Part shown: piece by piece, positions 1 through 51,035 of the stretch
Position numbering within the stretch: position 1 is the first letter of the stretch
Layout: every line of letters starts with the position of its first letter
Assembly (NCBI GenBank): GCA_009914755.4
Contig: CP068257.2
Coordinates: 736,001-800,000, forward strand
DNA: 64,000 bases
Source: the human T2T-CHM13v2.0 reference genome, Homo sapiens
Direction of reading: 5' to 3'
Position numbers and translations under genes: made by a program
Notes under the pieces: model-generated
The model's input: the letters and a program-made list of their open reading frames with translations, nothing else
Databases searched by the model: none
Told to the model about the DNA's origin: nothing

Positions 1-950
1 TCTGCCTAAATTAACTTTGTGACATAACCCTGTACTGATCATCCAGGTGATGGGGCTTTTGTCTAGGCTCTGCCTAAGGGGGCATTGTGACATATTTCTG
101 CATTGATCACCCAGGTGGCGAACTCTTCTCTTGGATCTGCCTATGGGGGCATTGTGACAAATCTCTGCACTGATAACCAAGGTGATGTAACGGTTGTGTA
201 ACCTCTGCCTACAGGGGAATTGTGAGAGATCTCGCCACTGATCACCCAAGTGATGAAACCATTGTCTAGGCTTTGCGTACAGGGGGCTTTGTGACATACC
301 TTTGCACTGATCACCCAGGTGATGTAACACATCTAAGTTCGGCCTAAAGGAGCTTTGTGACATATCTCTGCACTGATCACTTAGGTGATGGAACACTTTT
401 ATAAGCACTGCCTACAGGGAATTTTGACAAATCTCTGCACTGATCACCTAGGTGATGTAACGCTTGTCTACCCTCTGTCCAACGGGGCATTGTGAAATAT
501 CTCTGCACTGATCACCCAGGTGATTCAACTCTTGACTAGGATCTGCCTACAGAGGTTATTGTGAAATATCTCTGCACTGATAAACTAGGTGGTGTAATCC
601 TTATCGAAGCTCTGCCTACAGGGGCGTTTTCACATATCCCTGAAGTGATGACAAAGGTGATGTAACTCTTGCCTAGGCTTTGCCTACAGGGGACATAGGA
701 CATATATCTGCACTGATCACCCAGGTGATGCAACTGTAGCCTAGGCTTTGCCTACAGGGGACATTGTGACATATCGCTTCAATGATCACCCATGTGATGC
801 AACTCTTGCCTAGGCTTTGCCTACAGGGGACATTGTGACATATCTCAGCACTGATGTCCCAGGTGCTGTAACATTAGTCTAGACTCTGGCTACACGGCAT
901 TGTGACATATCACTGCACTGATCAACCAGGTGATATAACTCTTGTCTAGG

Positions 951-1018
951 CTCTGCCTACAGGGGGCTTGTGACATATCCCTGCAATGATCACCCAGGTG
1001 ATCTAACTCTTGTTTAAG
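951..1018. repeat. Representative single 68-bp monomer.
   Basis: ctctgcctac at 951 recurs as ctctgcctaa at 1019 and ctctgcttaa at 1087, so the period is 68 bp. Neighbouring monomers within one HOR differ by about 10-30%. Confidence 0.9.
989..1002. other. Monomer-internal dyad ATCACC-CA-GGTGAT: a perfect 6-bp inverted repeat with a 2-bp spacer. It contains the E-box CAGGTG and overlaps a GATC/BclI site. It is present in nearly every monomer.
   Basis: Read directly at 989-1002. The same motif is visible in essentially every 68-bp unit, about 900 copies in the window. Any function is unknown; I record it only as a conserved sequence feature. Confidence 0.5.
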
Positions 1019-1905
1019 CTCTGCCTAAAGGGGCATTGTGACAGATCTCTACACTGATCACTCAGGTGATGTAACTATTGTCTAGGCTCTGCTTAAAGGG
1101 GCCTTGTCACATACCTCTGCACTGATCACCCAGGTGATGTAACTCTTGTCTAGACTCTGCTTTCACGGCATATTGTGACATATCCATGCGCTGATCACCT
1201 TAGTGATGTAACACTTCTGTAGGCTCGGCCTACAGGGGAATATTGACATATCTCTGCACTGTTAACCGAGGTGATTTAACTCTTGTCTAGGCTGTGCCCA
1301 CAGGGGGATTGAGACATGTCTCTGCACTGATCCCGAGGTGATCCAACTGTTGCCTGGTCTCTGCCTACTGGGGACATTGTGACATATCTCTGCACTGATC
1401 TCCCAGGTGCTGTAACTTTAGTCTAGGCTCTGGCTACACGGCATTGTGACATATCACTGCACTGATCACCCAGGTGATATAAATCTTGTCTAGGCTCTGC
1501 CTACAATGGCCTTGTGACATATCACTGCACTGATCACCCAGGTGATATAACTCTTCTCTAGGATCTGACCACAGGGTGCTTTGTGGCATTTCCCTGCAAT
1601 GATCACCCAGGTGATATACCACTTGCCAAGGCTCTGCCTACAGGGGCATTGCAATGTATCTCTGCACTGATCACCTCGTTCTTGTAACTCTTTTCTAGGA
1701 TCTGCCCACAGGGTGCCTTGTGACGTATCCCAGCAAGGATTACCCAGGTGATGTACCTCTCATCAAGGCTCTGCCTACAGGCACATTGCGATGTATCTCT
1801 GCACTGATCACCTAGGTCATGTAACTTTTGTCTAGGCTCTGCCTACGATGGCATTGTGACATATCTCTGCACTAATCATCCAAGTGATGTAACCCTTGTC
1901 TAGGA

Positions 1906-3879
1906 TCTGCCTAAATTAACTTTGTGACATAACCCTGTACTGATCATCCAGGTGATGGGGCTTTTGTCTAGGCTCTGCCTTAAGGGGGCATTGTGACATA
2001 TTTCTGCATTGATCACCCAGGTGGCGAACTCTTCTCTTGGATCTGCCTATGGGGGCATTGTGACAAACCTCTGCACTGATCACCCAGGTGATGTAACTGT
2101 TGTGTAACCTCTGCCTACAGGGGAATTGGGAGAGATCTCGCCACTGATCACCCAAGTGATGTAACCATTGTCTAGGCTTTGCTTACAATGGGCTTTGTGA
2201 CATACCTTTGCACTGATCACCCAGGTGATGTAACACATCTATGTTCGACCTAAAGGAGCTTTGTGACATATCTCTGCACTGATCACTTAGGTGATGGAAC
2301 ACTTTTATAAGCACTGCCTACAGGGAATTTTGACAAATCTCTGCACTGATCACCTAGGTGATGTAACGCTTGTCTACCCTCTGTCCAACGGGGCATTGTG
2401 AAATATCTCTGCACTGATCACCCAGGTGATTCAACTCTTGACTAGTATCTGCCTACAGAGGTTATTGTGAAATATCTCTGCACTGATAAACTAGGTGGTG
2501 TAATCCTTATCGAAGCTCTGCCTACAGGGGCGTTTTCACATATCCCTGAAGTGATGACAAAGGTGATGTAACCCTTGCCTAGGCTTTGCCTACAGGGGAT
2601 ATAAGACATATATCTGCACTGATCACCCAGGTGATGCAACTCTAGCCTAGGCTTTGCCTACAGGGGACATTGTGACATATCGCTTCAATGATCACCCATG
2701 TGATGCAACTCTTGCCTAGGCTTTGCCTACAGGGGACATTGTGACATAAATCTGCACTGATCTCCCAGGTGCTGTAACATTAGTCTAGACTCTGGCTACA
2801 CGGCATTGTGACATATCACTGCACTGATCAACCAGGTGATATAACTCTTGTCTAGGCCCTGCCTACAGGGGGCTTGTGACATATCTCTGCACTGATCACC
2901 CAGGTGATATAACTCTTCTCTAGGATCTGCCTACAGGGTGCTTTGCGACATATCCCTACAATGATCACCCAGGTGATCTAACTCTTGTTTAAGCTCTGCC
3001 TAAAGGGGCATTGTGACAGACCTCTGCACTGATCACTCAGGTGATGTAACTATTGTCTAGGCTCTGCTTAAAGGGGCCTTGTCACATACCTCTGCACTGA
3101 TCACCCAGGTGATGTAACTATTGTCTAGACTCTGTTTCACGGCATATTGTGACATATCTATGCGCTGATCACCTTAGTGATGTAACACTTGTGTAGGCTC
3201 GGCCTACAGGGGAATATTGACATATCTCTGCACTGTTAACCGAGGTGATTTAACTCTTGTCTAGGCTGTGCCCACAGGGGGATTGAGACATGTCTCTGCA
3301 CTGATCCCGAGGTGATCCAACTGTTGCCTGGTCTCTGCCTACTGGGGACATTGTGACATATCTCTGCACTGATCTCCCAGGTGCTGTAACTTTAGTCTAG
3401 GCTCTGGCTACACGGCATTGTGACATATCACTGCACTGATCACCCAGGTGATATAAATGTTGTCTAGGCTCTGCCTACAATGGCCTTGTGACATATCTCT
3501 GCACTGATCACCCAGGTGATATAACTCTTCTCTAGGATCTGACCACAGGGTGCTTTGTGGCATTTCCCTGCAATGATCACCCAGGTGATATACCACTTGC
3601 CAAGGCTCTGCCTACAGGGGCATTGCAATGTATCTCTGCACTGATCACCTCGGTCTTGTAACTCTTTTCTAGGATCTGCCCACAGGGTGCCTTGTGACGT
3701 ATCCCAGCAAGGATTACCCAGGTGATGTACCTCTCATCAAGGCTCTGCCTACAGGCACATTGCGATGTATCTCTGCACTGATCACCTAGGTCATGTAACT
3801 TTTGTCTAGGCTCTGCCTACGATGGCATTGTGACATATCTCTGCACTAATCATCCAAGTGATGTAACCCTTGTCTAGGA
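1906..3879. repeat. HOR copy U2, canonical 29-mer (1974 bp), subtype K.
   Basis: Landmarks are at 1906 and 3880. Subtype markers are ctaagggggcat preceded by gcttaag..., and tataagacatatatc. Confidence 0.8.
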
Positions 3880-5853
3880 TCTGCCTAAATTAACGATGCG
3901 ACATAAACCTGTACTGATCATCCAGGTGATGGGGCTTTTGTCTAGGCTCTGCCTAAGGGGGCATTGTGACATATTTCTGCATTGATCACCCAGGTGGCAA
4001 ACTCTTCTCTTGGATCTGCCTATGGTGGCATTGTGACAAATCTCTGCACTGATCACCCAGGTGATGTAACTGTTGTGTAACCTCTGCCTACAGGGGAATT
4101 GTGAGAGATCTCACCACTGATCACCCAAGTGATGTAACCATTGTCTAGGCTTTGCGTACAGGGGGCTTTGTGACATACCTTTGCACTGATCACCCAGGTG
4201 ATGTAACACATCTAAGTTCGGCCTAAAGGAGCTTTGTGACATACCTCTGCACTGATCACTTAGGTGATGGAACACTTTTATAAGCACTGCCTACAGGGAA
4301 TTTTGACAAATCTCTGCACTGATCACCTAGGTGATGTAACGCTTGTCTACCCTCTGTCCAACGGGGCATTGTGAAATATCTCTACATTGATCACCCAGGT
4401 GATTCAACTCTTGACTAGGATCTGCCTACAGAGGTTATTGTGAAATATCTCTGCACTGATAAACTAGGTGGTGTAATCCTTATCGAAGCTCTGCCTACAG
4501 GGGCGTTTTCACATATCCCTGAAGTGATGACAAAGGTGATGTAACCCTTGCCTAGGCTTTGTCTACAGGGGACATAGAACATATATCTGCACTGATCACC
4601 CAGGTGATGCAACTCTAGCCTAGGCTTTGCCTACAGGGGACATTGTGACATATCGCTTCAATGATCACCCATGTGATGCAACTCTTGCCTAGGCTTTGCC
4701 TACAGGGGACATTGTGACATATCTCTGCACTGATCTCCCAGGTGCTGTAACATTAGTCTAGGCTCTGGCTACACGGCATTGTGACATATCACTGCACTGA
4801 TCAACCAGGTGATATAACTCTTGTCTAGGCCCTGCCTACAGGGGGCTTGTGACATATCTCTGCACTGATCACCCAGGTGATATAACTCTTCTCTAGGATC
4901 TGCCTACAGGGTGCTTTGCGACATATCCCTGCAATGATCACCCAGGTGATCTAACTCTTGTTTAAGCTCTGCCTAAGGGGGCATTGTGACAGACCTCTGC
5001 ACTGATCACTCAGGTGATGTAACTATTGTCTAGGCTCTGCTTAAAGGGGCCTTGTCACATACCTCTGTACTGATCACCCAGGTGATGTAACTCTTGTCTA
5101 GCCTCTGCTTTCACGGCATATTGTGACATATCTATGCGCTGATCACCTTAGTGATGTAACACTTGTGTAGGCTCGGCCTACAGGGGAATATTGACATATC
5201 TCTGCACTGTTAACCGAGGTGATTTAACTCTTGTCTAGGCTGTGCCCACAGGGGAATTGAGACATGTCTCTGCACTGATCCCGAGGTGATCCAACTGTTG
5301 CCTGGTCTCTGCCTCCTGGGGACATTGTGACATATCTCTGCACTGATCTCCCAGGTGCTGTAAATTTAGTCTAGGCTCTGGCTACACGGCTTTGTGAGAT
5401 ATCACTGCACTGATCACCCAGGTGATATAAACGTTGTCTAGGCTCTGCCTACAATGGCCTTGTGACATATCTCTGCACTGATCACCCAGGTGATATAACT
5501 CTTCTCTAGGATCTGACCACAGGGTGCTTTGTGGCATTTCCCTGCAATGATCACCCAGGTGAAATACCACTTGCCAAGGCTCTGCCTACAGGGGCATTGC
5601 AATATATCTCTGCACTGATCACCTCGGTCTTGCAACTCTTTTCTAGGATCTGCCCACAGGGTGCCTTGTGACGTATCCCAGCAAGGATTACCCAGGTGAT
5701 GTACCTCTCATCAAGGCTCTGCCTACAGGCACATTGCGATGTATCTCTGCACTGATCACCTAGGTCATGTAACTTTTGTCTAGGCTCTGCCTACGATGGC
5801 ATTGTGACATATCTCTGCACTAATCATCCAAGTGATGTAACCCTTGTCTAGGA
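3880..5853. repeat. HOR copy U3, 29-mer (1974 bp), subtype F.
   Basis: Landmarks are at 3880 and 5854. It shares private variants with U8, for example gtctacaggggacatagaacat. Confidence 0.8.
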
Positions 5854-7757
5854 TCTGCCTAAATTAACTTTGTGACATAACCCTGTACTGATCATCCAGG
5901 TGATGGGGCTTTTGTCTAGGCTCTGCCTAAGGGGGCATTGTGACATATTTCTGCATTGATCACCCAGGTGGCGAACTCTTCTCTTGGATCTGCCTATGGG
6001 GGCATTGTGACAAATCTCTGCACTGATAACCCAGGTGATGTAACGGTTGTGTGACCTCTGCCTACAGGGGAATTGTGAGAGATTTCGCCACTGATCACCC
6101 AAGTGATGAAACCATTGTCTAGGCTTTGCGTACAGGGGGCTTTGTGACATACCTTTGCACTGATCACCCAGGTGATGTAACACATCTAAGTTCGGCCTAA
6201 AGGAGCTTTGTGACATATCTCTGCACTGATCACTTAGGTGATGGAACACTTTTATAAGCACTGCCTACAGGGAATTTTGACAAATCTCTGCACTGATCAC
6301 CTAGGTGATGTAACGCTTGTCTACCCTCTGTCCAACGGGGCATTGTGAAATATCTGTGCACAGATCACCCAGGTGATTCAACTCTTGACTAGGATCTGCC
6401 TACAGAGGTTATTGTGAAATATCTCGGCACTGATAAACTAGGTGGTGTAATCCTTATCGAAGCTCTGCCTACAGGGGCGTTTTCACATATCCCTGAAGTG
6501 ATGACAAAGGTGATGTAACTCTTGCCTAGGCTTTGCCTACAGGGGACATAGGACATATATCTGCACTGATCACCCAGGTGATGCAACTGTAGCCTAGGCT
6601 TTGCCTACAGGGGACATTGTGACATATCGCTTCAATGATCACCCATGTGATGCAACTCTTGCCTAGGCTTTGCCTACAGGGGACATTGTGACATATCTCA
6701 GCACTGATGTCCCAGGTGCTGTAACATTAGTCTAGACTCTGGCTACACGGCATTGTGACATATCACTGCACTGATCAACCAGGTGATATAACTCTTGTCT
6801 AGGCTCTGCCTACAGGGGGCTTGTGACATATCCCTGCAATGATCACCCAGGTGATCTAACTCTTGTTTAAGCTCTGCCTAAAGGGGCATTGTGACAGACC
6901 TCTGCACTGATCACTCAGGTGATGTAACTATTGTCTAGACTCTGCTTAAAGGGGCCTTGTCACATACCTCTGCACTGATCACCCAGGTGATGTAACTCTT
7001 GTCTAGACTCTGTTTCACGGCATATTGTGACATATCTATGCGCTGATCACCTTAGTGATGTAACACTTGTGTAGGCTCGGCCTACAGGGGAATATTGACA
7101 TATCTCTGCACTGTTAACCGAGGTGATTTAACTCTTGTCTAGGCTGTGCCCACAGGGGGATTGAGACATGTCTCTGCACTGATCCCGAGGTGATCCAACT
7201 GTTGCCTGGTCTCTGCCTACTGGGGACATTGTGACATATCTCTGCACTGATCTCCCAGGTGCTGTAACTTTAGTCTAGGCTCTGGCTACACGGCATTGTG
7301 ACATATCACTGCACTGATCACCCAGGTGATATAAATCTTGTCTAGGCTCTGCCTACAATGGCCTTGTGACATATCTCTGCACTGATCACCCAGGTGATAT
7401 AACTATTCTCTAGGATCTGACCACAGGGTGCTTTGTGGCATTTCCCTGCAATGATCACCCAGGTGATATACCACTTGCCAAGGCTCTGCCTACAGGGGCA
7501 TTGCAATGTATCTCTGCACTGATCACCTCGGTCTTGTAACTCTTTTCTAGGATCTGCCCACAGGGTGCCTTGTGACGTATCCCAGCAAGGATTACCCAGG
7601 TGATGTACCTCTCATCAAGGCTCTGCCTACAGGCACATTGCGATGTATCTCTGCTCTGATCACCTAAGTCATGTAACTTTTGTCTAGGCTCTGCCTACGA
7701 TGGCATTGTGACAAATCTCTGCACTAATCATCCAAGTGATGTAACACTTGTCTAGGA
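5854..7757. repeat. HOR copy U4, 28-mer, deletion type A (1904 bp).
   Basis: Landmarks are at 5854 and 7758. It carries the same monomer deletion as U1 and U9. Confidence 0.8.
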
Positions 7758-9662
7758 TCTGCCTAAAGTAACTTTGTGACATAACCCTGTACTGATCATC
7801 CAGGTGATGCGGCTTTTGTCTAGGCTCTGCCTAAGGGGGCATTGTGACATATTTCTGCATTGATCACCCAGGTGGCGAACTCTTCTCTTGGATCTGCCTA
7901 TGGGGGCATTGTGACAAATCTCTGCACTGATCACCCAGGTGATGTAACTGTTGTGTAACCTCTGCCTACAGGGGAATTGTGTGAGATCTCGCCACTGATC
8001 ACCCAAGTGATGTAACCATTGTCTAGGCTTTGCGTAAAGGGGGCTTTGTGACATACCTTTGCACTGATCACCCAGGTGATGTAACACATCTAAGTTCGGC
8101 CTAAAGGAGCTTTGTGACATATCTCTGCACTGATCACTTAGGTGATGGAACACTTTTATAAGCACTGCCTACAGGGAATTTTGACAAATCTCTGCACTGA
8201 TCACCTAGGTGATGTAACGCTTGTCTACCCTCTGTCCAACGGGGCATTGTGAAATATCTCTGCACTGATCACCCAGGTGATTCAACTATTGACTAGGATC
8301 TGCCTACAGAGGTTATTGTGAAATATCTCTGCACTGATAAACTAGGTGGTGTAATCCTTATCGAAGCTCTGCCTGCAGGGGCGTTTTCACATATCCCTGA
8401 ATTGATGACAAAGGTGATGTAACCCTTGCCTAGGCTTTGCCTACAGGGGACATAGGACATATATCTGCACTGATCACCCAGGTGATGCAACTCTAGCCTA
8501 GGCTTTGCCTACAGGGGACATTGTGACATATCTCTGCACTGATCTCCCAGGTGCTGTAACATTAGTCTAGACTCTGGCTACACGGCATTGTGACATATCA
8601 CTGCACTGATCAACCAGGTGATATAACTCTTGTCTAGGCCCTGACTACAGGGGGCTTGTGACATATCTCTGCACTGATCACCCAGGTGATATAACTCTTC
8701 TCTAGGGTCTGCCTACAGGGTGCTTTGCGACATATCCCTGCAATGATCACCCAGGTGATCTAACTCTTGTTTAAGCTCTGCCTAAAGGGGCATTGTGACA
8801 GACCTCTGCACTGATCACTCAGGTGATGTAACTATTGTCTAGGCTCTGCTTAAAGGGGCCTTGTCACATACCTCTGCACTGATAACCCAGGTGATGTAAC
8901 TCTTGTCTAGCCTCTGCTTTCACGGCATATTGTGACATATCTATGCGCTGATCACCTTAGTGATGTAACACTTGTGTAGGCTCGGCCTACAGGGGAATAT
9001 TGACATATCTCTGCACTGTTAACCGAGGTGATTTAACTCTTGTCTAGGCTGTGCCCACAGGGGGTTTGAGACATGTCTCTGCACTGATCCCGAGGTGATC
9101 CAACTGTTGCCTGGTCTCTGCCTACTGGGGACATTGTGACATATCTCTGCACTGATCTCCCAGGTGCTGTAATTTTAGTCTAGGCTCTGGCTACACGGCA
9201 TTGTGACATATCACTGCACTGATCACCCAGGTGATATAAATCTTGTCTAGGCTCTGCCTACAATGACCTTGTGACATATCTCTGCACTGATCACCCAGGT
9301 GATATAACTCTTCTCTAGGATCTGACCACAGGGTGCTTTGTGGCATTTCCCTGCAATGATCACCGAGGTGATATACCACTTGTCAGGGCTCTGCCTACAG
9401 GGGCATTGCAACGTATCTCTGCACTGATCACCTCGGTCTTGTAACTCTTTTCTAGGATCTGCCCACAGGGTGCCTTGTGACGTATCCCAGCAAGGATTAC
9501 CCAGGTGATGTACCTCTCATCAAGGCTCTGCCTACAGGCACATCGCGATGTATCTCTGCACTGATCACCTAGGTCATGTAACTTTTGTCTAGGCTCTGCC
9601 TACGATGGCATTGTGACATATCTCTGCACTAATCATCCAAGTGATGTAACCCTTGTCTAGGA
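7758..9662. repeat. HOR copy U5, 28-mer, deletion type B (1905 bp).
   Basis: Landmarks are at 7758 and 9663. The cgcttcaatgatcacccatg monomer is missing at ~8490-8530. The boundary reads aaagtaac. Confidence 0.8.
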
Positions 9663-11636
9663 TCTGCCTAAATTAACTTTGTGACATAACCCTGTACTGA
9701 TCATCCAGGTGATGGGGCTTTTGTCTAGGCTCTGCCTAAGGGGGCATTGTGACTTATTTCTGCATTGATCACCCAGGTGGCGAACTCTTCTCTTGGATCT
9801 GCCTATGGGGGCATTGTGACAAATCTCTGCACTGATCACCCAGGTGATGTAACTGTTGTGTAACCTCTGCCTACAGGGGAATTGTGAGAGATCTCGCCAC
9901 TGATCACCCAAGTGACGTAACCATTGTCTAGGCTTTGCGTACAGGGGGCTTTGTGACATACCTTTGCACTGATCACCCAGGTGATGTAACACATCTAAGT
10001 TCGGCCTAAAGGAGCTTTGTGACATATCTCTGCACTGATCACCTAGGTGATGGAACACTTTTATAAGCACTGCCTACAGGGAATTTTGACAAATCTCTGC
10101 ACTGATCACCTAGGTGATGTAACTCTTGTCTACCCTCTGTCCAACGGGGCATTGTGAAATATCTCTGCACTGATCACCCAGGTGATTCAACTCTTGACTA
10201 GGATCTGCCTACAGAGGTTATTGTGAAATATCTCTGCACTGATAAACTAGGTGGTGTAATCCTTATCGAAGCTCTGCCTACAGGGGCGTTTTCACATATC
10301 CCTGAAGTGATGACAAAGGTGATGTAACTCTTGCCTAGGCTTTGCCTACAGGGGACATAGGACATATATCTGCGCTGATCACCCAGGTGATGCAACTCTA
10401 GCCTAGGCTTTGCCTACAGGGGACATTGTGACATATCGCTTCAATGATCACCCATGTGATGCAACTCTTGCCTTGGCTTTGACTATAGGGGACATTGTGA
10501 CATATCTCTGCACTGATCTCCCAGGTGCTGTAACATTAGTCTAGACTCTGGCTACACGGCATTGTGACATATCACTGCACTAATCAACCAGGTGACATAA
10601 CTCTTGTCTAGGCCCTGCCTACAGGGGGCTTGTGACATATCTCTGCACTGATCACCCAGGTGATATAACTCTTCTCTAGGGTCTGCCTACAGGGTGCTTT
10701 GCGACATATCCCTGCAATGATCACCCAGGTGATCTAACTCTTGTTTAAGCTCTGCCTAAAGGGGCATTGTGACAGATGTCTGCACTGATTACTCAGGTGA
10801 TGTAACTATTGTCTAGGCTCTGCTTAAAGGGGCCTTGTCACATACCTCTGCACTGATCACCCAGGTGATGTAACTCTTGTCTAGCCTCTGCTTTCACGGC
10901 ATATTGTGACATATCTATGCGCTGATCACCTTAGTGATGTAACACTTGTGTAGGCTCGGCCTACAGGGGAATATTGACATATCTCTGCACTGTTAACCGA
11001 GGTGATTTAACTCTTGTCTAGGCTGTGCCCACAGGGGGATTGAGACATGTCTCTGCCATGATCCCGAGGTGATCCAACTGTTGCCTGGTCTCTGCCTACT
11101 GGGGACATTGTGACATATCTCTGCACTGATCTCCCAGGTGCTGTAATTTTAGTCTAGGCTCTGGCTACACGGCATTGTGACATATCACTGCACTGATCAC
11201 CCAGGTTATATAAATCTTGTCTAGGCTCTGCCTACAATGGCCTTGTGACATATCTCTGCACTGATCACCCAGGTGATATAACTCTTCTCTAGGATCTGAC
11301 CACAGGGTGCTTTGTGGCATTTCCCTGCAATGATCACCCAGGTGATATACCACTTGCCAAGGCTCTGCCTACAGGGGCATTGCAATGTATCTCTGCACTG
11401 ATCACCTCGGTCTTGTAACTCTTTTCTAGGATCTGCCCACAGGGTGCCTTGTGACGTATCCCAGCAAGGATTACCCAGGTGATGTACCTCTCATCAAGGC
11501 TCTGCCTACAGGCACATTGCGATGTATCTCTGCACTGATCACCTAGGTCATGTAACTTTTGTCTGGGCTCTGCCTACGATGGCATTGTGACATATCTCTG
11601 CACTAATCATCCAAGTGATGTAACCCTTGTCTAGGA
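9663..11636. repeat. HOR copy U6, 29-mer (1974 bp), subtype R.
   Basis: Landmarks are at 9663 and 11637. Markers are gtgacttatttctg and ccttggctttgacta. Confidence 0.8.
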
Positions 11637-41303: not shown

Positions 41304-43208
41304 TCTGCCTAAAGTAACTTTGTGACATAACCCTGTACTGATCATCCAGGTGATGCGGCTTTTGTCTAGGCTCTGCCTAAGGGGGCATTGTGACATATTT
41401 CTGCATTGATCACCCAGGTGGCGAACTCTTCTCTTGGATCTGCCTATGGGGGCATTGTGACAAATCTCTGCACTGATCACCCAGGTGATGTAACTGTTGT
41501 GTAACCTCTGCCTACAGGGGAATTGTGTGAGATCTCGCCACTGATCACCCAAGTGATGTAACCATTGTCTAGGCTTTGCGTACAGGGGGCTTTGTGACAT
41601 ACCTTTGCACTGATCACCCAGGTGATGTAACACATCTAAGTTCGGCCTAAAGGAGCTTTGTGACATATCTCTGCACTGATCACTTAGGTGATGGAACACT
41701 TTTATAAGCACTGCCTACAGGGAATTTTGACAAATCTCTGCACTGATCACCTAGGTGATGTAACGCTTGTCTACCCTCTGTCCAACGGGGCATTGTGAAA
41801 TATCTCTGCACTGATCACCCAGGTGATTCAACTATTGACTAGGATCTGCCTACAGAGGTTATTGCGAAATATCTCTGCACTGATAAACTAGGTGGTGTAA
41901 TCCTTATCGAAGCTCTGCCTGCAGGGGCGTTTTCACATATCCCTGAATTGATGACAAAGGTGATGTAACCCTTGCCTAGGCTTTGCCTACAGGGGACATA
42001 GGACATATATCTGCACTGATCACCCAGGTGATGCAACTCTAGCCTAGGCTTTGCCTACAGGGGACATTGTGACATATCTCTGCACTGATCTCCCAGGTGC
42101 TGTAACATTAGTCTAGACTCTGGCTACACGGCATTGTGACATATCACTGCACTGATCAACCAGGTGATATAACTCTTGTCTAGGCCCTGACTACAGGGGG
42201 CTTGTGACATATCTCTGCACTGATCACCCAGGTGATATAACTCTTCTCTAGGGTCTGCCTACAGGGTGCTTTGCGACATATCCCTGCAATGATCACCCAG
42301 GTGATCTAACTCTTGTTTAAGCTCTGCCTAAAGGGGCATTGTGACAGACCTCTGCACTGATCACTCAGGTGATGTAACTATTGTCTAGGCTCTGCTTAAA
42401 GGGGCCTTGTCACATACCTCTGCACTGATCACCCAGGTGATGTAACTCTTGTCTAGACTCTGCTTTCACGGCATATTGTGACATATCTATGCGCTGATCA
42501 CCTTAGTGATGTAACACTTGTGTAGGCTCGGCCTACAGGGGAATATTGACATATCTCTGCACTGTTAACCGAGGTGATTTAACTCTTGTCTAGGCTGTGC
42601 CCACAGGGGGTTTGAGACATGTCTCTGCACTGATCCCGAGGTGATCCAACTGTTGCCTGGTCTCTGCCTACTGGGGACATTGTGACATATCTCTGCACTG
42701 ATCTCCCAGGTGCTGTAATTTTAGTCTAGGCTCTGGCTACACGGCATTGTGACATATCACTGCACTGATCACCCAGGTGATATAAATCTTGTCTAGGCTC
42801 TGCCTACAATGACCTTGTGACATATCTCTGCAATGATCACCCAGGTGATATAACTCTTCTCTAGGATCTGACCACAGGGTGCTTTGTGGCATTTCCCTGC
42901 AATGATCACCGAGGTGATATACCACTTGTCAGGGCTCTGCCTACAGGGGCATTGCAACGTATCTCTGCACTGATCACCTCGGTCTTGTAACTCTTTTCTA
43001 GGATCTGCCCACAGGGTGCCTTGTGACGTATCCCAGCAAGGATTACCCAGGTGATGTACCTCTCATCAAGGCTCTGCCTACAGGCACATTGCGATGTATC
43101 TCTGCACTGATCACCTAGGTCATGCAACTTTTGTCTAGGCTCTGCCTACGATGGCATTGTGACATATCTCTGCACTAATCATCCAAGTGATGTAACCCTT
43201 GTCTAGGA
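41304..43208. repeat. HOR copy U22, 28-mer, deletion type B (1905 bp).
   Basis: Landmarks are at 41304 and 43209. Confidence 0.8.
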
Positions 43209-45182
43209 TCTGCCTAAATTAACTTTGTGACATAACCCTGTACTGATCATCCAGGTGATGGGGCTTTTGTCTAGGCTCTGCCTAAGGGGGCATTGTGACT
43301 TATTTCTGCATTGATCACCCAGGTGGCGAACTCTTCTCTTGGATCTGCCTATGGGGGCATTGTGACAAATCTCTGCACTGATCACCCAGGTGATGTAACT
43401 GTTGTGTAACCTCTGCCTACAGGGGAATTGTGAGAGATCTCGCCACTGATCACCCAAGTGATGTAACCATTGTCTAGGCTTTGCGTACAGGGGGCTTTGT
43501 GACATACCTTTGCACTGATCACCCAGGTGATGTAACACATCTAAGTTCGGCCTAAAGGAGCTTTGTGACATATCTCTGCACTGATCACCTAGGTGATGGA
43601 ACACTTTTATAAGCACTGCCTACAGGGAATTTTGACAAATCTCTGCACTGATCACCTAGGTGATGTAACTCTTGTCTACCCTCTGTCCAACGGGGCATTG
43701 TGAAATATCTCTGCACTGATCACCCAGGTGATTCAACTCTTGACTAGGATCTGCCTACAGAGGTTATTGTGAAATATCTCTGCACTGATAAACTAGGTGG
43801 TGTAATCCTTATCGAAGCTCTGCCTACAGGGGCGTTTTCACATATCCCTGAAGTGATGACAAAGGTGATGTAACTCTTGCCTAGGCTTTGCCTACAGGGG
43901 ACATAGGACATATATCTGCGCTGATCACCCAGGTGATGCAACTCTAGCCTAGGCTTTGCCTACAGGGGACATTGTGACATATCGCTTCAATGATCACCCA
44001 TGTGATGCAACTCTTGCCTTGGCTTTGACTACAGGGGACATTGTGACATATCTCTGCACTGATCTCCCAGGTGCTGTAACATTAGTCTAGACTCTGGCTA
44101 CACGGCATTGTGACATATCACTGCACTAATCAACCAGGTGATATAACTCTTGTCTAGGCCCTGCCTACAGGGGGCTTGTGACATATCTCTGCACTGATCA
44201 CCCAGGTGATATAACTCTTCTCTAGGGTCTGCCTACAGGGTGCTTTGCGACATATCCCTGCAATGATCACCCAGGTGATCTAACTCTTGTTTAAGCTCTG
44301 CCTAAAGGGGCATTGTGACAGATCTCTGCACTGATCACTCAGGTGATGTAACTATTGTCTAGGCTCTGCTTAAAGGGGCCTTGTCACATACCTCTGCACT
44401 GATCACCCAGGTGATGTAACTCTTGTCTAGCCTCTGCTTTCACGGCATATTGTGACATATCTATGCGCTGATCACCTTAGTGATGTAACACTTGTGTAGG
44501 CTCGGCCTACAGGGGAATATTGACATATCTCTGCACTGTTAACCGAGGTGATTTAACTCTTGTCTAGGCTGTGCCCACAGGGGGATTGAGACATGTCTCT
44601 GCCATGATCCCGAGGTGATCCAACTGTTGCCTGGTCTCTGCCTACTGGGGACATTGTGACATATCTCTGCACTGATCTCCCAGGTGCTGTAATTTTAGTC
44701 TAGGCTCTGGCTACACGGCATTGTGACATATCACTGCACTGATCACCCAGGTTATATAAATCTTGTCTAGGCTCTGCCTACAATGGCCTTGTGACATATC
44801 TCTGCACTGATCACCCAGGTGATATAACTCTTCTCTAGGATCTGACCACAGGGTGCTTTGTGGCATTTCCCTGCAATGATCACCCAGGTGATATACCACT
44901 TGCCAAGGCTCTGCCTACAGGGGCATTGCAATGTATCTCTGCACTGATCACCTCGGTCTTGTAACTCTTTTCTAGGATCTGCCCACAGGGTGCCTTGTGA
45001 CGTATCCCAGCAAGGATTACCCAGGTGATGTACCTCTCATCAAGGCTCTGCCTACAGGCACATTGCGATGTATCTCTGCACTGATCACCTAGGTCATGTA
45101 ACTTTTGTCTGGGCTCTGCCTACGATGGCATTGTGACATATCTCTGCACTAATCATCCAAGTGATGTAACCCTTGTCTAGGA
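43209..45182. repeat. HOR copy U23, 29-mer (1974 bp), subtype R without the 2-monomer insertion.
   Basis: Landmarks are at 43209 and 45183. It resembles U6 more than U12 or U17. Confidence 0.8.
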
Positions 45183-47156
45183 TCTGCCTAAATTAACTTT
45201 GTGACATAACCCTGTACTGATCATCCAGGTGATGGGGCTTTTGTCTAGGCTCTGCCTAAGGGGGCATTGTGACATATTTCTGCATTGATCACGCAGGTGG
45301 CGAACTCTTCTCTTGGATCTGCCTATGGGGGCATTGTGACAAATCTCTGCACTGATCACCCAGGTGATGTAACGGTTGTGTAACCTCTGCCTACAGGGGA
45401 ATTGTGAGAGATCTCGCCACTGATCACGCAAGTGATGTAACCATTGTCTAGGCTTTGCGTACAGGGGGCTTTGTGACATACCTTTGCACTGATCACCCAG
45501 GTGATGTAACACATCTAAGTTCGGCCTAAAGGAGCTTTGTGACATGTCTCTGCACTGATCACTTAGGTGATGGAACACTTTTATAAGCACTGCCTACAGG
45601 GAATTTTGACAAATCTCTGCACTGATCACCTAGGTGATGTAACGCTGGTCTACCCTCTGTCCAACGGGGCATTGTGAAATATCTCTGCACTGATCACCCA
45701 GGTGATTCAACTCTTGACTAGGATCTGCCTACAGAGGTTATTGTGAAATATCTCTGCACTGATAAACTAGGTGGTGTAATACTTATCGAAGCTCTGCCTA
45801 CAGGTGCGTTTTCACATATCCCTGAAGTGATGACAAAGGTGATGTAACCCTTGCCTAGGCTTTGCCTACAGGGGACATAGGACATATATCTGCACTGATC
45901 ACCCAGGTGATGCAACTCTAGCCTAGGCTTTGCCTACAGGGGACATTGTGATATATCGCTTCAATGATCACCCATGTGATGCAACACTTGCCTAGGCTTT
46001 GCCTACAGGGGACATTGTGACATATCTCTGCACTGATCTCCCAGGTGCTGCAACATTAATCTAGAGTCTGGCTACACGGCATTGTGACATATCACTGCAC
46101 TGATCAACCAGGTGATATAACTCTTGTCTAGGTCCTGCCTACAGAGGGCTTGTGACATATCTCTGCACTGATCACCCAGGTGATATAACTCTTCTCTAGG
46201 ATCTGCCTACAGGGTGCTTTGCGACATATCCCTGCAATGATAACCCAGGTGATCTAACTCTTGTTTAAGCTCTGCCTAAAGGGGCATTGTGACAGACCTG
46301 TGCACTGATCACTAAGGTGATGTAACTATTGTCTAGGCTCTGCTTAAAGGGGCCTTGTCACATACCTCTGCACTGATAACCCAGGTGATGTAACTCTTGT
46401 CTAGCCTCTGCTTTCACGGCATATTGTGACATATCCATTCGCAGATCACCTTAGTGATGTAACAGTTGTGTAGGCTCGGCCTACAGGGGAATATTGACAT
46501 ATCTCTGCACTGTTAACCGAGGTGATTTAACTCTTGTCTAGGCTGTGCCCACAGGGGGATTGAGACATGTCTCTGCACTGATCCCGAGGTGATCCAACTG
46601 TTGCCTGGTCTCTGCCTACTGGGGACATTGTGACATATCTCTGCACTGATCTCCCAGGTGCTGTAACTTTAGTCTAGGCTCTGGCTACACGGCATTGTGA
46701 CATATCACTGCACTGATCACCCAGGTGATATAAATCTTGTCTAGGCTCTGCCTACAATGGCCTTGTGACATATCTCTGCACTGATCACCCAGGTGATATA
46801 ACTCTTCTCTAGGATCTGACCACAGGGTGCTTTGTGGCATTTCCCTGCAATGATCACCCAGGTGATATACCACTTGCCAAGGCTCTGCCTACAGGGGCAT
46901 TGCAATGTATCTCTGCACTGATCACCTCGGTCTTGTAACTCTTTTCTAGGACCTGCCCACCGGGTGCCTTTTGACGTATCCCAGCAAGGATTACCCAGGT
47001 GATGTACCTCTCATCAAGGCTCTGCCTACAGGCACATTGCGATGTATCTCTGCACTGATCACCTAGGTCATGTAACTTTTGTCTAGGCTCTGCCTACGAT
47101 GGCATTGTGACATATCTCTGCACTAATCATCCAAGTGATGTAACCGTTGTCTAGGA
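45183..47156. repeat. HOR copy U24, 29-mer (1974 bp), a Y-like subtype.
   Basis: Landmarks are at 45183 and 47157. Confidence 0.8.
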
Positions 47157-49130
47157 TCTGCCTAAATTAACTTTGTGACATAACCCTGTACTGATCATCC
47201 AGGTGATGGGGCTTTTGTCTAGGCTCTGCCTAAGGGGGCATTGTGACATATTTCTGCATTGATCACCCAGGTGGCGAACTCTTCTCTTGGATCTGCCTAT
47301 GGGGGCATTGTGACAAATCTCTGCACTGATCACCCAGGTGATGTAACTGTTGTGTAACCTCTGCCTACAGGGGAATTGTGAGAGATCTCGCCACTGATCA
47401 CCCAAGTGATGTAACCATTGTCTAGGCTTTGCGTACAGGGGGCTTTGTGACATACCTTTGCACTGATCACCCTGGTGATGTAACACATCTAAGTTCGGCC
47501 TAAAGGAGCTTTGTGACATATCTCTGCACTGATCACTTAGGTGATGGAACACTTTTATAAGCACTGCCTACAGGGAATTTTGACAAATCTCTGCACTGAT
47601 CACCTAGGTGATGTAATGCTTGTCTACCCTCTGTCCAACGGGGCATTGTGAAATGTCTCTGCACTGATCACCCAGGTGATTCAACTCTTGACTAGGATCT
47701 GCCTACAGAGGTTATTGTGAAATATCTCTGCACTGATAAACTAGGTGGTGTAATCCTTATCGAAGCTCTGCCTACAGGTGCGTTTTCACATATCCCTGAA
47801 GTGATGACAAAGGTGATGTAACCCTTGCCTAGGCTTTGCCTACAGGGTACATAGGACATATATCTGCACTGATCACCCAGGTGATGCAACTGTAGCCTAG
47901 GCTTTGCCTACAGGGGACATTGTGACATATCGCTTCAATGATCACCCGTGTGATGCAACTCTTGCCTAGGCTTTGCCTACAGGGGACATTGTGACATATC
48001 TCTGCACTGATCTCCCAGGTGCTGTAACATTAGTCTAGACTCTGGCTACACGGCATTGTGATATATCACTGCACTGATCAACCAGGTGATATAACTCTTG
48101 TCTAGGCCCTGCCTACAGGGGGCTTGTGACATATCTCTGCACTGATCACCCAGGTGATGTAACTCTTCTCTAGGATCTGCCTACAGGGTGCTTTGCGACA
48201 TATCCCTGCAATGATCACCCAGGTGATCTAACTCTTGTTTAAGCTCTGCCTAAAGGGGCATTGTGACAGAACTCTGCACTGATCACTCAGGTGATGTAAC
48301 TATTGTCTAGGCTCTGCTTAAAGGGGCCTTGTCACATACCTCTGCACTGATCACCCAGGTGATGTAACCCTTGTCTAGACTCTGCTTTCACGGCATATTG
48401 TGACATATCTATGCGCTGATCACCTTAGTGATGTAACACTTGTGTAGGCTCGGCCTACAGGGGAATATTGACATATCTCTGCACTGTTAACCGAGGTGAT
48501 TTAACTCTTGTCTAGGCTGTGCCCACAGGGGGATTGAGACATGTCTCTGCACTGATCCCGAGGTGATCCAACTGTTGCCTGGTCTCTGCCTACTGGGGAC
48601 ATTGTGACATATCTCTGCACTGATCTCCCAGGTGCTGTAAATTTTGTCTAGGCTCTGGCTACACGGCATTGTGACATATCACTGCACTGATCACCCAGGT
48701 GATATAAATCTTGTCTAGGCTCTGCCTACAATGGCCTTGTGACATATCTCTGCACTGATCACCCAGGTGATATAACTCTTCTCTAGGATCTGACCACAGG
48801 GTGCTTTGTGGCATTTCCCTGCAATGATCACCCAGGTGATATACCACTTGCCAAGGCTCTGCCTACAGGGGCATTGCAATGTATCTCTGCACTGATCACC
48901 TCGGTCTTGTAACTCTTTTCTAGGATCTGCCCACAGGGTGCCTTGTGACGTATCCCAGCAAGGATTACCCAGGTGATGTACCTCTCATCAAGGCTCTGCC
49001 TACAGGCACATTGCGATGTATCTCTGCACTGATCACCTAGGTCATGTAACTTTTGTCTGGGCTCTGCCTACGATGGCATTGTGACATATCTCTGCACTAA
49101 TCATCCAAGTGATGTAACCCTTGTCTAGGA
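47157..49130. repeat. HOR copy U25, 29-mer (1974 bp), an S-like subtype.
   Basis: Landmarks are at 47157 and 49131. Confidence 0.8.
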
Positions 49131-51035
49131 TCTGCCTAAAGTACCTTTGTGACATAACCCTGTACTGATCATCCAGGTGATGGGGCTTTTGTCTAGGCTC
49201 TGCCTAAGGGGGCATTGTGACATATTTCTGCATTGATCACCCAGGTGGCGAACTCTTCTCTTGGATCTGCCTATGGGGGCATTGTGACAAATCTCTGCAC
49301 TGATCACCCAGGTGATGTAACTGTTGTGTAACCTCTGCCTACAGGGGAATTGTGAGAGATCTCGCCACTGATCACCCAAGTGATGTAACCATTGTCTAGG
49401 CTTTGCGTACAGGGGGCTTTGTGACATACCTTTGCACTGATCACCCAGGTGATGTAACACATCTAAGTTCGGCCTAAAGGAGCTTTGTGACATATCTCTG
49501 CACTGATCACTTAGGTGATGGAACACTTTTATAAGCACTGCCTACAGGGAATTTTGACAAATCTCTGCACTGATCACCTAGGTGATGTAACGCTTGTCTA
49601 CCCTCTGTCCAACGGGGCATTGTGAAATATCTCTGCACTGATCACCCAGGTGATTCAACTATTGACTAGGATCTGCCTACAGAGGTTATTGTGAAATATC
49701 TCTGCACTGATAAAATAGGTGGTGTAATCCTTATCGAAGCTCTGCCTGCAGGGGCGTTTTCACATATCCCTGAAGTGATGACAAAGGTGATGTAACCCTT
49801 GCCTAGGCTTTGCCTACAGGGGACATAGGTCATATATCTGCACTGATCACCCAGGTGATGCAACTCTAGCCTAGGCTTTGCCTACAGGGGACATTGTGAC
49901 ATATCTCTGCACTGATCTCCCAGGTGCTGTAACATTAGTCTAGACTCTGGCTACACGGCATTGTGACATATCACTGCACTGATCAACCAGGTGATATAAC
50001 TCTTGTCTAGGCCCTGCCTACAGGGGGCTTGTGACATATCTCTGCACTGATCACCCAGGTGATATAACTCTTCTCTAGGGTCTGCCTACAGGGTGCTTTG
50101 CGACATATCCCTGCAATGATCACCCAGGTGATCTAACTCTTGTTTAAGCTCTGCCTAAAGGGGCATTGTGACAGACCTCTGCACTGATCACTCAGGTGAT
50201 GTAACTATTGTCTAGGCTCTGCTTAAAGGGGCCTTGTCACATACCTCTGCACTGATCACCCAGGTGATGTAACTCTTGTCTAGACTCTGCTTTCACGGCA
50301 TATTGTGACATATCTATGCGCTGATCACCTTAGTGATGTAACACTTGTGTAGGCTCGGCCTACAGGGGAATATTGACATATCTCTGCACTGTTAACCGAG
50401 GTGATTTAACTCTTGTCTAGGCTGTGCCCACAGGGGGATTGAGACATGTCTCTGCACTGATCCCGAGGTGATCCAACTGTTGCCTGGTCTCTGCCTACTG
50501 GGGACATTGTGACATATCTCTGCACTGATCTCCCAGGTGCTGTAACTTTAGTCTAGGCTCTGGCTACACGGCATTGTGACATATCACTGCACTGATCACC
50601 CAGGTGATATAAATCTTGTCTAGGCTCTGCCTACAATGACCTTGTGACATATCTCTGCACTGATCACCCAGGTGATATAACTCTTCTCTAGGATCTGACC
50701 ACAGGGTGCTTTGTGGCGTTTCCCTGCAATGATCACCGAGGTGATATACCACTTGTCAAGGCTCTGCCTACAGGGGCATTGCAACGTATCTCTGCACTGA
50801 TCACCTCGGTCTTGTAACTCTTTTCTAGGATCTGCCCACAGGGTGCCTTGTGACGTATCCCAGCAAGGATTACCCAGGTGATGTATCTCTCATCAAGGCT
50901 CTGCCTACAGGCACATTGCGATGTATCTCTGCACTGATCACCTAGGTCATGTAACTTTTGTCTAGGCTCTGCCTACGATGGCATTGTGACATATCTCTGC
51001 ACTAATCATCCAAGTGATGTAACCCTTGTCTAGGA
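49131..51035. repeat. HOR copy U26, 28-mer, deletion type B (1905 bp).
   Basis: Landmarks are at 49131 and 51036. The cgcttcaatg monomer is missing at ~49870-49930. Confidence 0.8.

What the first reader, a model, noticed from the sequence alone, without database searches (positions are those of the whole stretch)
1..51035. A third hierarchy level: HOR subtypes recur in a fixed order every 5-6 HOR units (~9.7-11.9 kb)
Each HOR copy carries private substitutions that define subtypes. I label them A, K, F, B, R, Y and S here. Reading along the array, the order is A K F A | B R Y F A K | B R Y S K | B R Y S | Y S | B R Y S S. This is a cyclic pattern of K or A, then B, R, Y, then F or S. It is punctuated by deletions or duplications of whole HOR units. 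Periods of 9731, 9933, 11705 and 11908 bp all appear. A structured super-HOR on top of the HOR is uncommon enough to note. It means the array was amplified in multi-HOR blocks.
Basis: seen in the sequence. Interest (0 to 1): 0.6.

Follow-up and report, generated by a model that had tools for sequence, protein, structure and literature searches.

The report
Nested multi-unit duplications in beta satellite
The recurring order of repeat-unit variants is real, but it is the footprint of a few recent tandem duplications spanning 2 to 6 repeat units in a human-type beta-satellite array, which is how satellite DNA normally evolves, not a stable third level of periodicity.

Summary
The whole window is one 68-bp tandem array, beta-satellite-like. 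It is organised as a 1974-bp (29-monomer) higher-order repeat (HOR), with 1905-bp and 2109-bp variants.

The last unit is B-type, not S. The order is far from random: 0 of 200,000 label shuffles reach it.

There is no single super-period. Each of the four quoted periods comes from one pair of segments, and no multi-unit motif occurs more than twice in a row. The pattern resolves into dated events:
- **Youngest:** a 9933-bp (5-HOR) tandem duplication with one difference in 9969 bp.
- **Next:** a 3947-bp (2-HOR, Y S) duplication with 2 differences in 3988 bp.
- **Older:** three independent copies of an "S-tail, B, R, Y" block, 0.39-0.46% apart.
- **Oldest:** older A/K/F repeats.

Units u4, u10/u15, u25 and u27 are mid-unit recombinants. 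The homogeneous core ends inside u27 (52219-52257), next to HORs 3-6% diverged from the core.

The best explanation is out-of-register homologous exchange at multi-HOR offsets. This is a known phenomenon in alpha satellite (HOR haplotypes, superHORs, nested duplications). Interest is low.

The parts
17..64000 (+). Uninterrupted 68-bp tandem array (beta-satellite type) in a single orientation, with no foreign insertions
   Evidence: TRF. Composition is uniform. All 104 near-matches to a human 4q35 distal primer lie on the + strand.
29..51063 (+). 26 homogenised 'core' HOR units, u1-u26. The basic unit is 1974 bp (29 monomers), with 1905-bp and 2109-bp variants. Pairwise divergence is 0-2.5%.
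17565..27497 (+). Copy 1 of the youngest tandem duplication. Period 9933 bp = 5 HORs (K/S-hybrid, B, R with 135-bp insertion, Y, S).
   Evidence: At ungapped shift 9933, 17565-27533 equals 27498-37466 apart from one C/G difference at 20679/30612.
27498..37466 (+). Copy 2 of the 9933-bp duplication, lying directly head-to-tail with copy 1. The exchange point is confined to about 36 bp, at unit offset +47 to +83.
   Evidence: The u15 head lacks the T insertion of u10 and lacks the B marker.
33421..37367 (+). Copy 1 of the 3947-bp (Y S, 2-HOR) tandem duplication
   Evidence: 33421-37408 against +3947 shows 2 differences in 3988 bp.
37368..41355 (+). Copy 2 of the Y S duplication (units u20-u21)
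6825..13729 (+). Older block 1: S-type tail of u4, then B, R, Y
   Evidence: 0.43-0.46% from blocks 2, 3 and 4
18399..26329 (+). Older block 2: S-type tail of u10, then B, R(+135 bp), Y, then S head
   Evidence: 31 differences in 7931 bp against block 4
28332..36262 (+). Block 3. This is the recent copy of block 2, not an independent event.
40240..48035 (+). Older block 4: S-type tail of u21, then B, R, Y, then the S head of u25
3908..6845 (+). F plus A-head pair, repeated at 13639-16576 (shift 9731) with 0.71% divergence
22813..22947 (+). 135-bp insertion, a tandem copy of monomers m21-m22. It is present only in the R units u12 and u17 (second copy at 32746-32880). It arose after the older block amplification and before the 5-HOR duplication.
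6824..6899 (+). Junction interval of hybrid unit u4 (A head, S tail)
18333..18541 (+). Junction interval of hybrid unit u10 (K head, S tail). It is copied in u15 at 28266-28474.
52219..52257 (+). Single switch inside u27 from the core-type to the flank-type HOR haplotype
   Evidence: 69 diagnostic consensus differences, 37 of them fixed. Through 52219, u27 matches the core consensus at 31 of the first 38 diagnostic sites, with 7 scattered flank-type matches. From 52257 it is flank-type at all 31 remaining sites.
52258..64000 (+). Older, more diverged HOR units (rest of u27, u28-u32 and a partial u33). They are 1.5-3.9% from each other and 4.5-6.1% from the core (u27, a hybrid, is 2.9-3.7% from the core), with no multi-unit order detectable.

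Best explanation
The window lies in a beta-satellite array, almost certainly human. Its 1974-bp HOR has been locally expanded by out-of-register homologous exchange between misaligned copies of the array. The likely process is unequal sister-chromatid exchange or unequal crossover, or an equivalent replication-template switch. The offsets were several HOR units (2, 4, 5 and 6).

Each such exchange duplicates a run of neighbouring HOR variants head to tail. The variants then reappear in the same order.

Inferred history, oldest first:
1. HOR variants A, K, F, B, R, Y and S diverged to about 1.3-2.5%. They include two independent one-monomer deletions, one in A and one in B.
2. An S-B-R-Y block was amplified to at least three copies, now 0.39-0.46% apart. 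Mid-unit exchanges with the A/K/F part created hybrids u4 (A/S) and u10 (K/S).
3. The R unit of one block gained a two-monomer duplication.
4. Y S was duplicated (period 3947 bp).
5. An exchange between u10 and the new Y unit, five units downstream, duplicated K/S-B-R-Y-S (period 9933 bp). This was very recent.

The apparent 'third level' is therefore a transient genealogical by-product of array turnover. It is not a maintained period and not a functional unit.

Shown directly: the segment identities, the adjacency of copies, the junction intervals and the relative order of events 3 to 5. Inferred: the molecular mechanism and the older steps.
For: Youngest duplication.
- The copies lie head to tail and the period is an exact sum of five unit lengths (1905+2109+1974+1973+1972 = 9933).
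- The identity run is the period plus 36 bp, with one substitution.
- No junction scar is present.

Order of events.
- The u15 head lacks the T insertion of u10, the B-head marker and the first Y marker. This places the exchange between K/S unit u10 and Y unit u20 at offset +47 to +83, so the Y S duplication came first.
- The graded divergence agrees: 0.01% < 0.05% < 0.4-0.5% < 0.6-1.2% < 1.3-2.5%.
- The 135-bp insertion occurs only in u12 and u17, so it falls between the block amplification and the 5-HOR duplication.

Mosaic units.
- Separate clustering of heads and tails shows that u4, u10, u14, u15, u19 and u21 share one tail type. Every B unit inside the ordered region is preceded by that tail.

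No true period.
- Each long period maps to one segment pair, and no motif has more than 2 consecutive copies.

Same behaviour in a related family.
- Alpha satellite shows HOR haplotypes, young layers prone to recent nested duplications, and superHORs.
Against: - The mechanism is inferred from the products only. Unequal exchange, break-induced replication and template switching would leave the same footprint.
- The three older B-R-Y blocks are about equally diverged, and B R Y S occurs at a clean 4-unit spacing once the young events are removed. A short-lived genuine 4-HOR amplification unit is therefore not excluded.
- The window shows only 64 kb of an array that may be much larger, and the left edge is open.
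- A near-perfect 9.9-kb tandem copy is also what an assembly over-expansion would look like. No read data were available.
Confidence: 0.82

Rival explanations
1. This is a genuine superHOR. A defined multi-HOR unit, most plausibly the 4-unit B R Y S of about 7.8 kb, is the current amplification unit of this array. The window catches its edge, with A/K/F units and later indels blurring it.
For: - S-tail, B, R, Y occurs four times, and B R Y S occurs three times plus a partial copy.
- After removing the two youngest events the right part reads B R Y S B R Y S B.
- The three independent blocks are similarly diverged, 0.39-0.46%, as a burst would give.
Against: - No motif is repeated 3 or more times consecutively.
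- Block spacing is 6, 5 and 6 units.
- The most recent events used offsets of 2 and 5 units, not 4.
- Only about 2.25 consecutive B R Y S copies exist even in the reconstructed ancestor.
Confidence: 0.12
2. The youngest tier, the 9.9-kb and 3.9-kb near-identical tandem copies, is an assembly artefact: a falsely expanded repeat. Only the older, weaker order would then be biological.
For: Divergence of 0.01% and 0.05% in a satellite array is in the range where assemblers can mis-resolve copy number.
Against: - The copies are distinguishable: one substitution, one indel at the u10/u15 head, and different flanks.
- The junctions are exactly what a homologous exchange predicts.
- The order stays highly non-random without these copies, p <= 2e-4.
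Confidence: 0.05
3. Long-tract gene conversion between pre-existing units made distant units alike, with no change in copy number.
For: Mosaic units (u4, u10, u25, u27) show that exchanges do occur inside units.
Against: - The identical tracts are 4-10 kb and directly adjacent.
- Tract length equals the period, and the tracts carry a length variant (+135 bp) with them. This is the signature of duplication.
- Known mammalian conversion tracts are far shorter (established knowledge, not tested here).
Confidence: 0.03

Closest known systems
Alpha-satellite superHORs and HOR haplotypes (CentromereArchitect, PMC8336445; T2T-HG002 HORhap/superHOR annotation, PMC13477032)
   Same: HOR copies fall into variant classes, and recurring combinations of neighbouring classes form a repeat above the HOR. 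The same clustering-then-order logic applies.
   Different: The satellite family differs (68-bp beta, not 171-bp alpha, and not a kinetochore array). The motif here never reaches 3 consecutive copies, so it would not be annotated as a superHOR array under the HG002 definition.
Recent nested duplications and layered expansion in active alpha-satellite arrays (Altemose et al., bioRxiv 10.1101/2021.07.12.452052)
   Same: There is a homogeneous young domain with nested, near-identical multi-HOR duplications. It abuts older, more diverged HORs of the same family across a sharp haplotype boundary (here inside u27).
   Different: Only one flank is visible, so symmetry cannot be judged. The scale is tens of kb, not hundreds. 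There is no link to CENP-A or any function.
Unequal-crossover model of tandem-repeat evolution (Smith 1976; recalled from memory, not read here)
   Same: It predicts spontaneous emergence of longer periodicities and local homogenisation from out-of-register exchange, as seen here.
   Different: It is a theoretical model. This window gives an unusually clean worked example with datable tiers.
Human beta satellite (Sau3A family) HOR arrays on acrocentric short arms and on chromosomes 1, 9 and Y (Waye & Willard 1989, as summarised in PMC8125562 and PMC7767330)
   Same: 68-bp monomers are organised in multimeric HORs. There is a GATC site in most monomers, and the array neighbours a (ATGGA)n/HSat-type satellite in a related contig (L008).
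   Different: The chromosome and the named HOR (pB3, pB4 or other) could not be assigned with the tools available.

Membership tests
Human beta satellite (Sau3A family) | Tandem monomers of about 68 bp | tested here: met
   TRF gives period 68 with 940 copies and 74% matches. The consensus HOR splits into 29 monomers of 66-69 bp.
Human beta satellite (Sau3A family) | Monomers organised in multimeric higher-order repeats | tested here: met
   The 1974-bp unit is repeated 32 times at 94-100% identity, while monomers are only about 77% alike.
Human beta satellite (Sau3A family) | Sau3A (GATC) site recurring in the monomers | tested here: met
   There are 33 GATC sites in the 29-monomer consensus, mostly 66-69 bp apart.
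Human beta satellite (Sau3A family) | Sequence similarity to a reference beta-satellite monomer | tested here: inconclusive
   No reference consensus was available. The indirect evidence is as follows. A published primer placed distal to pLAM on human 4q35 (bioRxiv 10.1101/157040) matches 104 sites with at most 3 mismatches, against 0 expected. The beta-satellite nature of that 4q35 region is from memory. The same HOR family turns up as stray contigs in unrelated bacterial assemblies, as human contamination does.
Human beta satellite (Sau3A family) | Chromosomal location (acrocentric p arms or pericentromeres of chromosomes 1, 9, Y and others) | not testable with these tools
   No human reference genome was searchable. 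The only hint is contig L008, which joins the HOR to (ATGGA)n.
superHOR array (working definition of PMC13477032) | [quoted passage not shown] | tested here: not met
The maximum is 2 consecutive copies: 'K B R Y S' x2 and 'Y S' x2.
superHOR (looser definition of CentromereArchitect, PMC8336445) | A substring of the HOR-level decomposition that recurs (minimum count 2) | tested here: met
   B R Y occurs 4 times and B R Y S 3 times. Caveat: that method uses structural HOR variants as symbols, whereas the classes here are mostly defined by substitutions.
Tandem segmental duplication by in-register homologous exchange | Copies directly adjacent and head to tail, with a period equal to a whole number of repeat units | tested here: met
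   9933 = the sum of five unit lengths and 3947 = the sum of two. The copies abut at 27497/27498 and 37367/37368.
Tandem segmental duplication by in-register homologous exchange | Scar-free junction, with the identity run only slightly longer than the period | tested here: met
   The identity runs are 9969 bp (period + 36) and 3988 bp (period + 41).
Layered expansion (young core, older flanks) | A homogeneous domain bordered by more diverged HORs of the same family, with a discrete boundary | tested here: met
   The core is at most 2.5% diverged internally and the flank is 4.5-6% from the core. The switch lies inside u27 at 52219-52257. Only one side is visible.

The most novel reading that the evidence does not exclude
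Beta-satellite arrays are not kinetochore-forming. They may nonetheless undergo the same layered, nested multi-HOR expansion as active alpha-satellite arrays, with exchange junctions concentrated in one part of the HOR. Here four hybrid junctions fall in consensus positions 816-1201, next to the two one-monomer deletion sites and one copy of an internal three-monomer duplication. If that holds across the whole array and across haplotypes, it would point to a sequence-determined recombination hot zone inside a non-centromeric satellite. It might also reveal a genuine 4-HOR (B R Y S) amplification unit beyond the window.
Probability: 0.15. Interest if true: 0.4.

Novelty: new member of a known kind. 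Interest (0 to 1): 0.2.

Why it matters
The finding is a clean, datable example of how satellite arrays turn over. About 14 kb of the roughly 51-kb core (27%) was created by just two very recent events.

Structures like this are useful as markers for assembly validation and for tracing array haplotypes between individuals.

It does not reveal a new organisational principle. The same behaviour is documented for alpha satellite and is predicted by the unequal-exchange model.

Tried and rejected
- Exact 15-22-mers of the monomer were searched in the paper library to tie the sequence to a published beta-satellite sequence. The first search found nothing. The second found only a 4q35 primer.
- Waye & Willard 1989 (PMC297815) is not held, so no reference HOR could be compared and no chromosome assigned.
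- Metagenome and prokaryote-genome collections were scanned for the HOR anchor, hoping for independent copies of the array. This returned 16 short contigs. Most are paralogous (78-98.8% identical), collapsed, or chimeric: L007 carries bacterial genes. None spans enough units to test subtype order.
- An Rfam scan of the flanks of those contigs found nothing.
- A greedy monomer decomposition failed and was replaced by alignment to a concatenated monomer.
- I tested whether subtype-defining substitutions are conversions toward the monomer family consensus. They are not: 12 of 31 eligible, near the one-third expected by chance.
- Gene conversion was rejected as the cause of the long identical tracts, and a single fixed super-period was rejected (see rival explanations).
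- A first BLAST self-comparison merged neighbouring events and was not used for boundaries.
Full report
**What the window is.** Tandem Repeats Finder (TRF) reports a single tandem array with a 68-bp unit over 17..64000, with 74% matches between monomers. Base composition is flat at GC 0.47. Ungapped autocorrelation peaks at 1974 bp, then at 68, 1905 and 613 bp, and at long shifts of 11705, 3878, 7757, 9731, 9933 and 11908 bp. A 16-mer that occurs once per long repeat gives 33 starts and hence 32 complete higher-order repeat (HOR) units. Their lengths are 1904/1905 bp (28 monomers), 1971-1974 bp (29 monomers) and 2109 bp (31 monomers).

**Family assignment.** The features match the published description of human beta satellite, the Sau3A family: a 68-bp monomer, a GATC site in most monomers and multimeric HOR organisation (PMC8125562, PMC7767330, bioRxiv 10.1101/2021.07.12.452052). 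I could not obtain a reference consensus. The indirect links to human are these:
- A published primer used to amplify the region distal to D4Z4/pLAM on human 4q35 matches 104 sites here with at most 3 mismatches, against 0 expected.
- The same HOR family occurs as stray short contigs in assemblies of unrelated bacteria and archaea and in metagenomes, which is the pattern of human contamination.
- One such contig joins the HOR to (ATGGA)n, an HSat2/3-type pentamer satellite.
The chromosome could not be determined.

**Checking the observation.** I aligned the 32 units and computed pairwise divergence. Units u1-u26 differ by 0-2.5%. Units u28-u32 are 4.5-6.1% from them, and u27 is intermediate. 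The distance histogram has a low mode at or below 0.9% and a main mode at 1.3-2.4%. The order is A K F A B R Y F A K B R Y S K B R Y S Y S B R Y S B.

The only mislabel is the last unit (49159-51063). It is B-type: 0.7-0.9% from the other B units, and it carries the 69-bp deletion at consensus 724-792 that all B units share.

Structural markers back the classes independently:
- A units (u1, u4, u9) share a different 69-bp deletion at consensus 944-1012.
- R units u12 and u17 share a 135-bp insertion, which is a tandem copy of monomers m21-m22.

Bootstrap support is 100% for F, R and Y and 89% for B. It is only 58-63% for A, K and S as whole-unit clades.

The order is not random. There are 12 distinct adjacent pairs, against a minimum of 14 in 200,000 label shuffles. 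After deleting the two youngest duplications, p is still at or below 2e-4. Mean divergence dips at unit lags 5, 6, 11 and 17. The observation therefore stands, with minor corrections.

**What produces the order.** Mismatch positions along each unit-offset diagonal resolve the pattern into discrete events of different ages.

*Tier 0.* At an ungapped shift of 9933 bp, 17565-27533 equals 27498-37466 except for one C/G difference at 20679/30612.
- The period equals the sum of five unit lengths.
- The copies abut head to tail.
- The identity run exceeds the period by only 36 bp, so the exchange point is confined to unit offset +47 to +83.

*Tier 1.* 33421-37408 matches the sequence 3947 bp downstream with 2 differences in 3988 bp. 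This is a two-unit Y S tandem duplication, with its junction at the unit boundary.

*Order of tiers 0 and 1.* The head of u15 lacks the T insertion of u10. It also lacks the marker of a B head and the first Y marker. This is what an exchange between u10 and the Y unit five positions downstream would give. That Y unit exists only if the Y S duplication came first, which agrees with the divergences of 0.05% versus 0.01%.

*Tier 2.* Four blocks of about 6.9-7.9 kb lie at 6825-13729, 18399-26329, 28332-36262 and 40240-48035. They differ by 0.39-0.46%. The third is merely the tier-0 copy of the second, so there are three independent copies.

*Tier 3.* F plus the A head at 3908-6845 repeats at +9731 with 0.71% divergence. 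A units u1 and u9 differ by 0.6%, and the K heads by 1.2%.

The 135-bp insertion is confined to the R units of blocks 2 and 3. It therefore arose between tier 2 and tier 0.

**Mosaic units.** Clustering the unit heads (consensus 1-850) and tails (1013-1974) separately shows that u4, u10, u14, u15, u19 and u21 share one tail type.
- u4 is an A head joined to an S tail, with the junction at 6824-6899.
- u10, and its copy u15, is a K head joined to an S tail, with the junction at 18333-18541.
- u25 is an S head with a different tail.

u27 is a clean recombinant between the core haplotype and the flank haplotype. There are 69 diagnostic consensus differences, 37 of them fixed. The switch lies between 52219 and 52257, so the homogeneous domain ends there and not at 51035.

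- 9731 bp from 4001-7000
- 9933 bp from 17751-27500
- 11705 bp from 7001-11250
- 11908 bp from 28251-32750

The recent T2T-HG002 study annotates a superHOR only when an n-mer of HOR haplotypes (n = 2-9) is repeated at least three times in a row (PMC13477032). This region fails that test. It does meet the looser 'recurrent substring' notion of CentromereArchitect (PMC8336445).

After removing tiers 0 and 1, the right part reads B R Y S B R Y S B. A brief phase of 4-HOR amplification is therefore possible but cannot be established from about 2.25 copies.

**Mechanism.** The footprints are those expected from homologous exchange between misaligned array copies: head-to-tail copies, periods that are whole numbers of HORs, scar-free in-register junctions, hybrid units and a graded series of ages. 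The candidates are unequal sister-chromatid exchange, unequal crossover, or a replication-template switch with the same outcome. The products are shown; the molecular route is inferred.
- Long-tract gene conversion does not fit, because tract length equals the period, the copies are adjacent and a length variant travels with them.
- An assembly artefact cannot be excluded for the two youngest tiers without reads. The copies do differ by a substitution and an indel, and the non-random order survives their removal.

**Comparison with what is known.** In alpha satellite, several things are already described:
- HOR haplotypes.
- Young central layers flanked by older ones.
- 'Patterns of recent nested duplication'.
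- SuperHORs, reported to occupy about a third to a half of the arrays on chr8, chr9 and chr15.
New HORs in beta-satellite arrays were also reported from T2T-CHM13. I found no paper describing multi-HOR order in a beta-satellite array specifically. This is therefore a new instance of a known kind of structure, not a new kind.

**Related loci.** Sixteen external contigs carry this HOR family.
- Most are closer to the flank-type units u28 and u31 (97-98.8%) than to the core.
- L003 is 99.1% identical to core units and contains a 1906-bp unit spacing.
- None is long or reliable enough to test subtype order.
- L007 is chimeric with bacterial genes.

**Verdict.** Interest is low.

Noticed in passing
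window, every HOR unit: consensus positions about 805-1008 and 1418-1621 (for example 833-1036 and 1377-1580 in u1, allowing for its deletion): Inside the HOR, monomers m12-m14 are 97/91/97% identical to m21-m23, a three-monomer internal duplication nine monomers apart. This explains the 613-bp autocorrelation peak. Other monomer pairs are about 77% alike.
   Followed up: yes
window 972, 6825, 16556 (A-type) and 8509, 20214, 30147, 42055, 49882 (B-type): Two independent deletions of exactly one monomer (69 bp) define the A and B HOR variants. They lie at consensus 944-1012 (m14/15) and 724-792 (m10/11; these two monomers are 88% alike).
   Followed up: yes
window 22813-22947 and 32746-32880: A 135-bp insertion makes the 2109-bp units. 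It is a 99%-identical tandem copy of monomers m21-m22, present only in the two R units related by the youngest duplication.
   Followed up: yes
window 6824-6899, 18333-18541 (copy at 28266-28474), about 48175-48385, and 52219-52257: All four older hybrid-unit junctions fall in consensus positions 816-1201, about 20% of the HOR. This is near the two deletion sites and one copy of the internal duplication. The clustering is suggestive only (rough p about 0.03).
   Followed up: partly
window 52219-52257 and 52258-64000: There is a sharp switch inside unit u27 from the homogenised core haplotype to an older haplotype. Its units differ 1.5-3.9% from each other and 4.5-6.1% from the core. This looks like the edge of a young expansion layer.
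   Followed up: yes
window 29-62897 (all unit comparisons): The transition:transversion ratio is about 1:1 or lower in every class of variant: core 82:94, flank singletons 47:89, core-versus-flank consensus 34:35. This is well below the roughly 2:1 usual for human point mutation (the 2:1 figure is from memory). CpG sites are over-represented among variants (15 of 176, from 21 CpGs). The low ratio is unexplained, and a test for conversion toward the monomer consensus was negative.
   Followed up: partly
L008 1-1851 and 1863-4209: A metagenome contig joins this beta-satellite HOR (97.7% to flank-type units) directly to about 2.3 kb of (ATGGA)n, an HSat2/3-type pentamer satellite. It may represent an array edge in the source genome family.
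   Followed up: partly
L007 1-6672 and L010-L016: The HOR family appears in assemblies labelled Actinomadura, Acidovorax, Streptosporangium, Campylobacter, Psychrobacter, a Desulfobacteraceae metagenome-assembled genome (MAG) and a Woesearchaeota MAG. In L007 it is fused to bacterial genes. These look like contamination or chimeric contigs in public records.
   Followed up: partly
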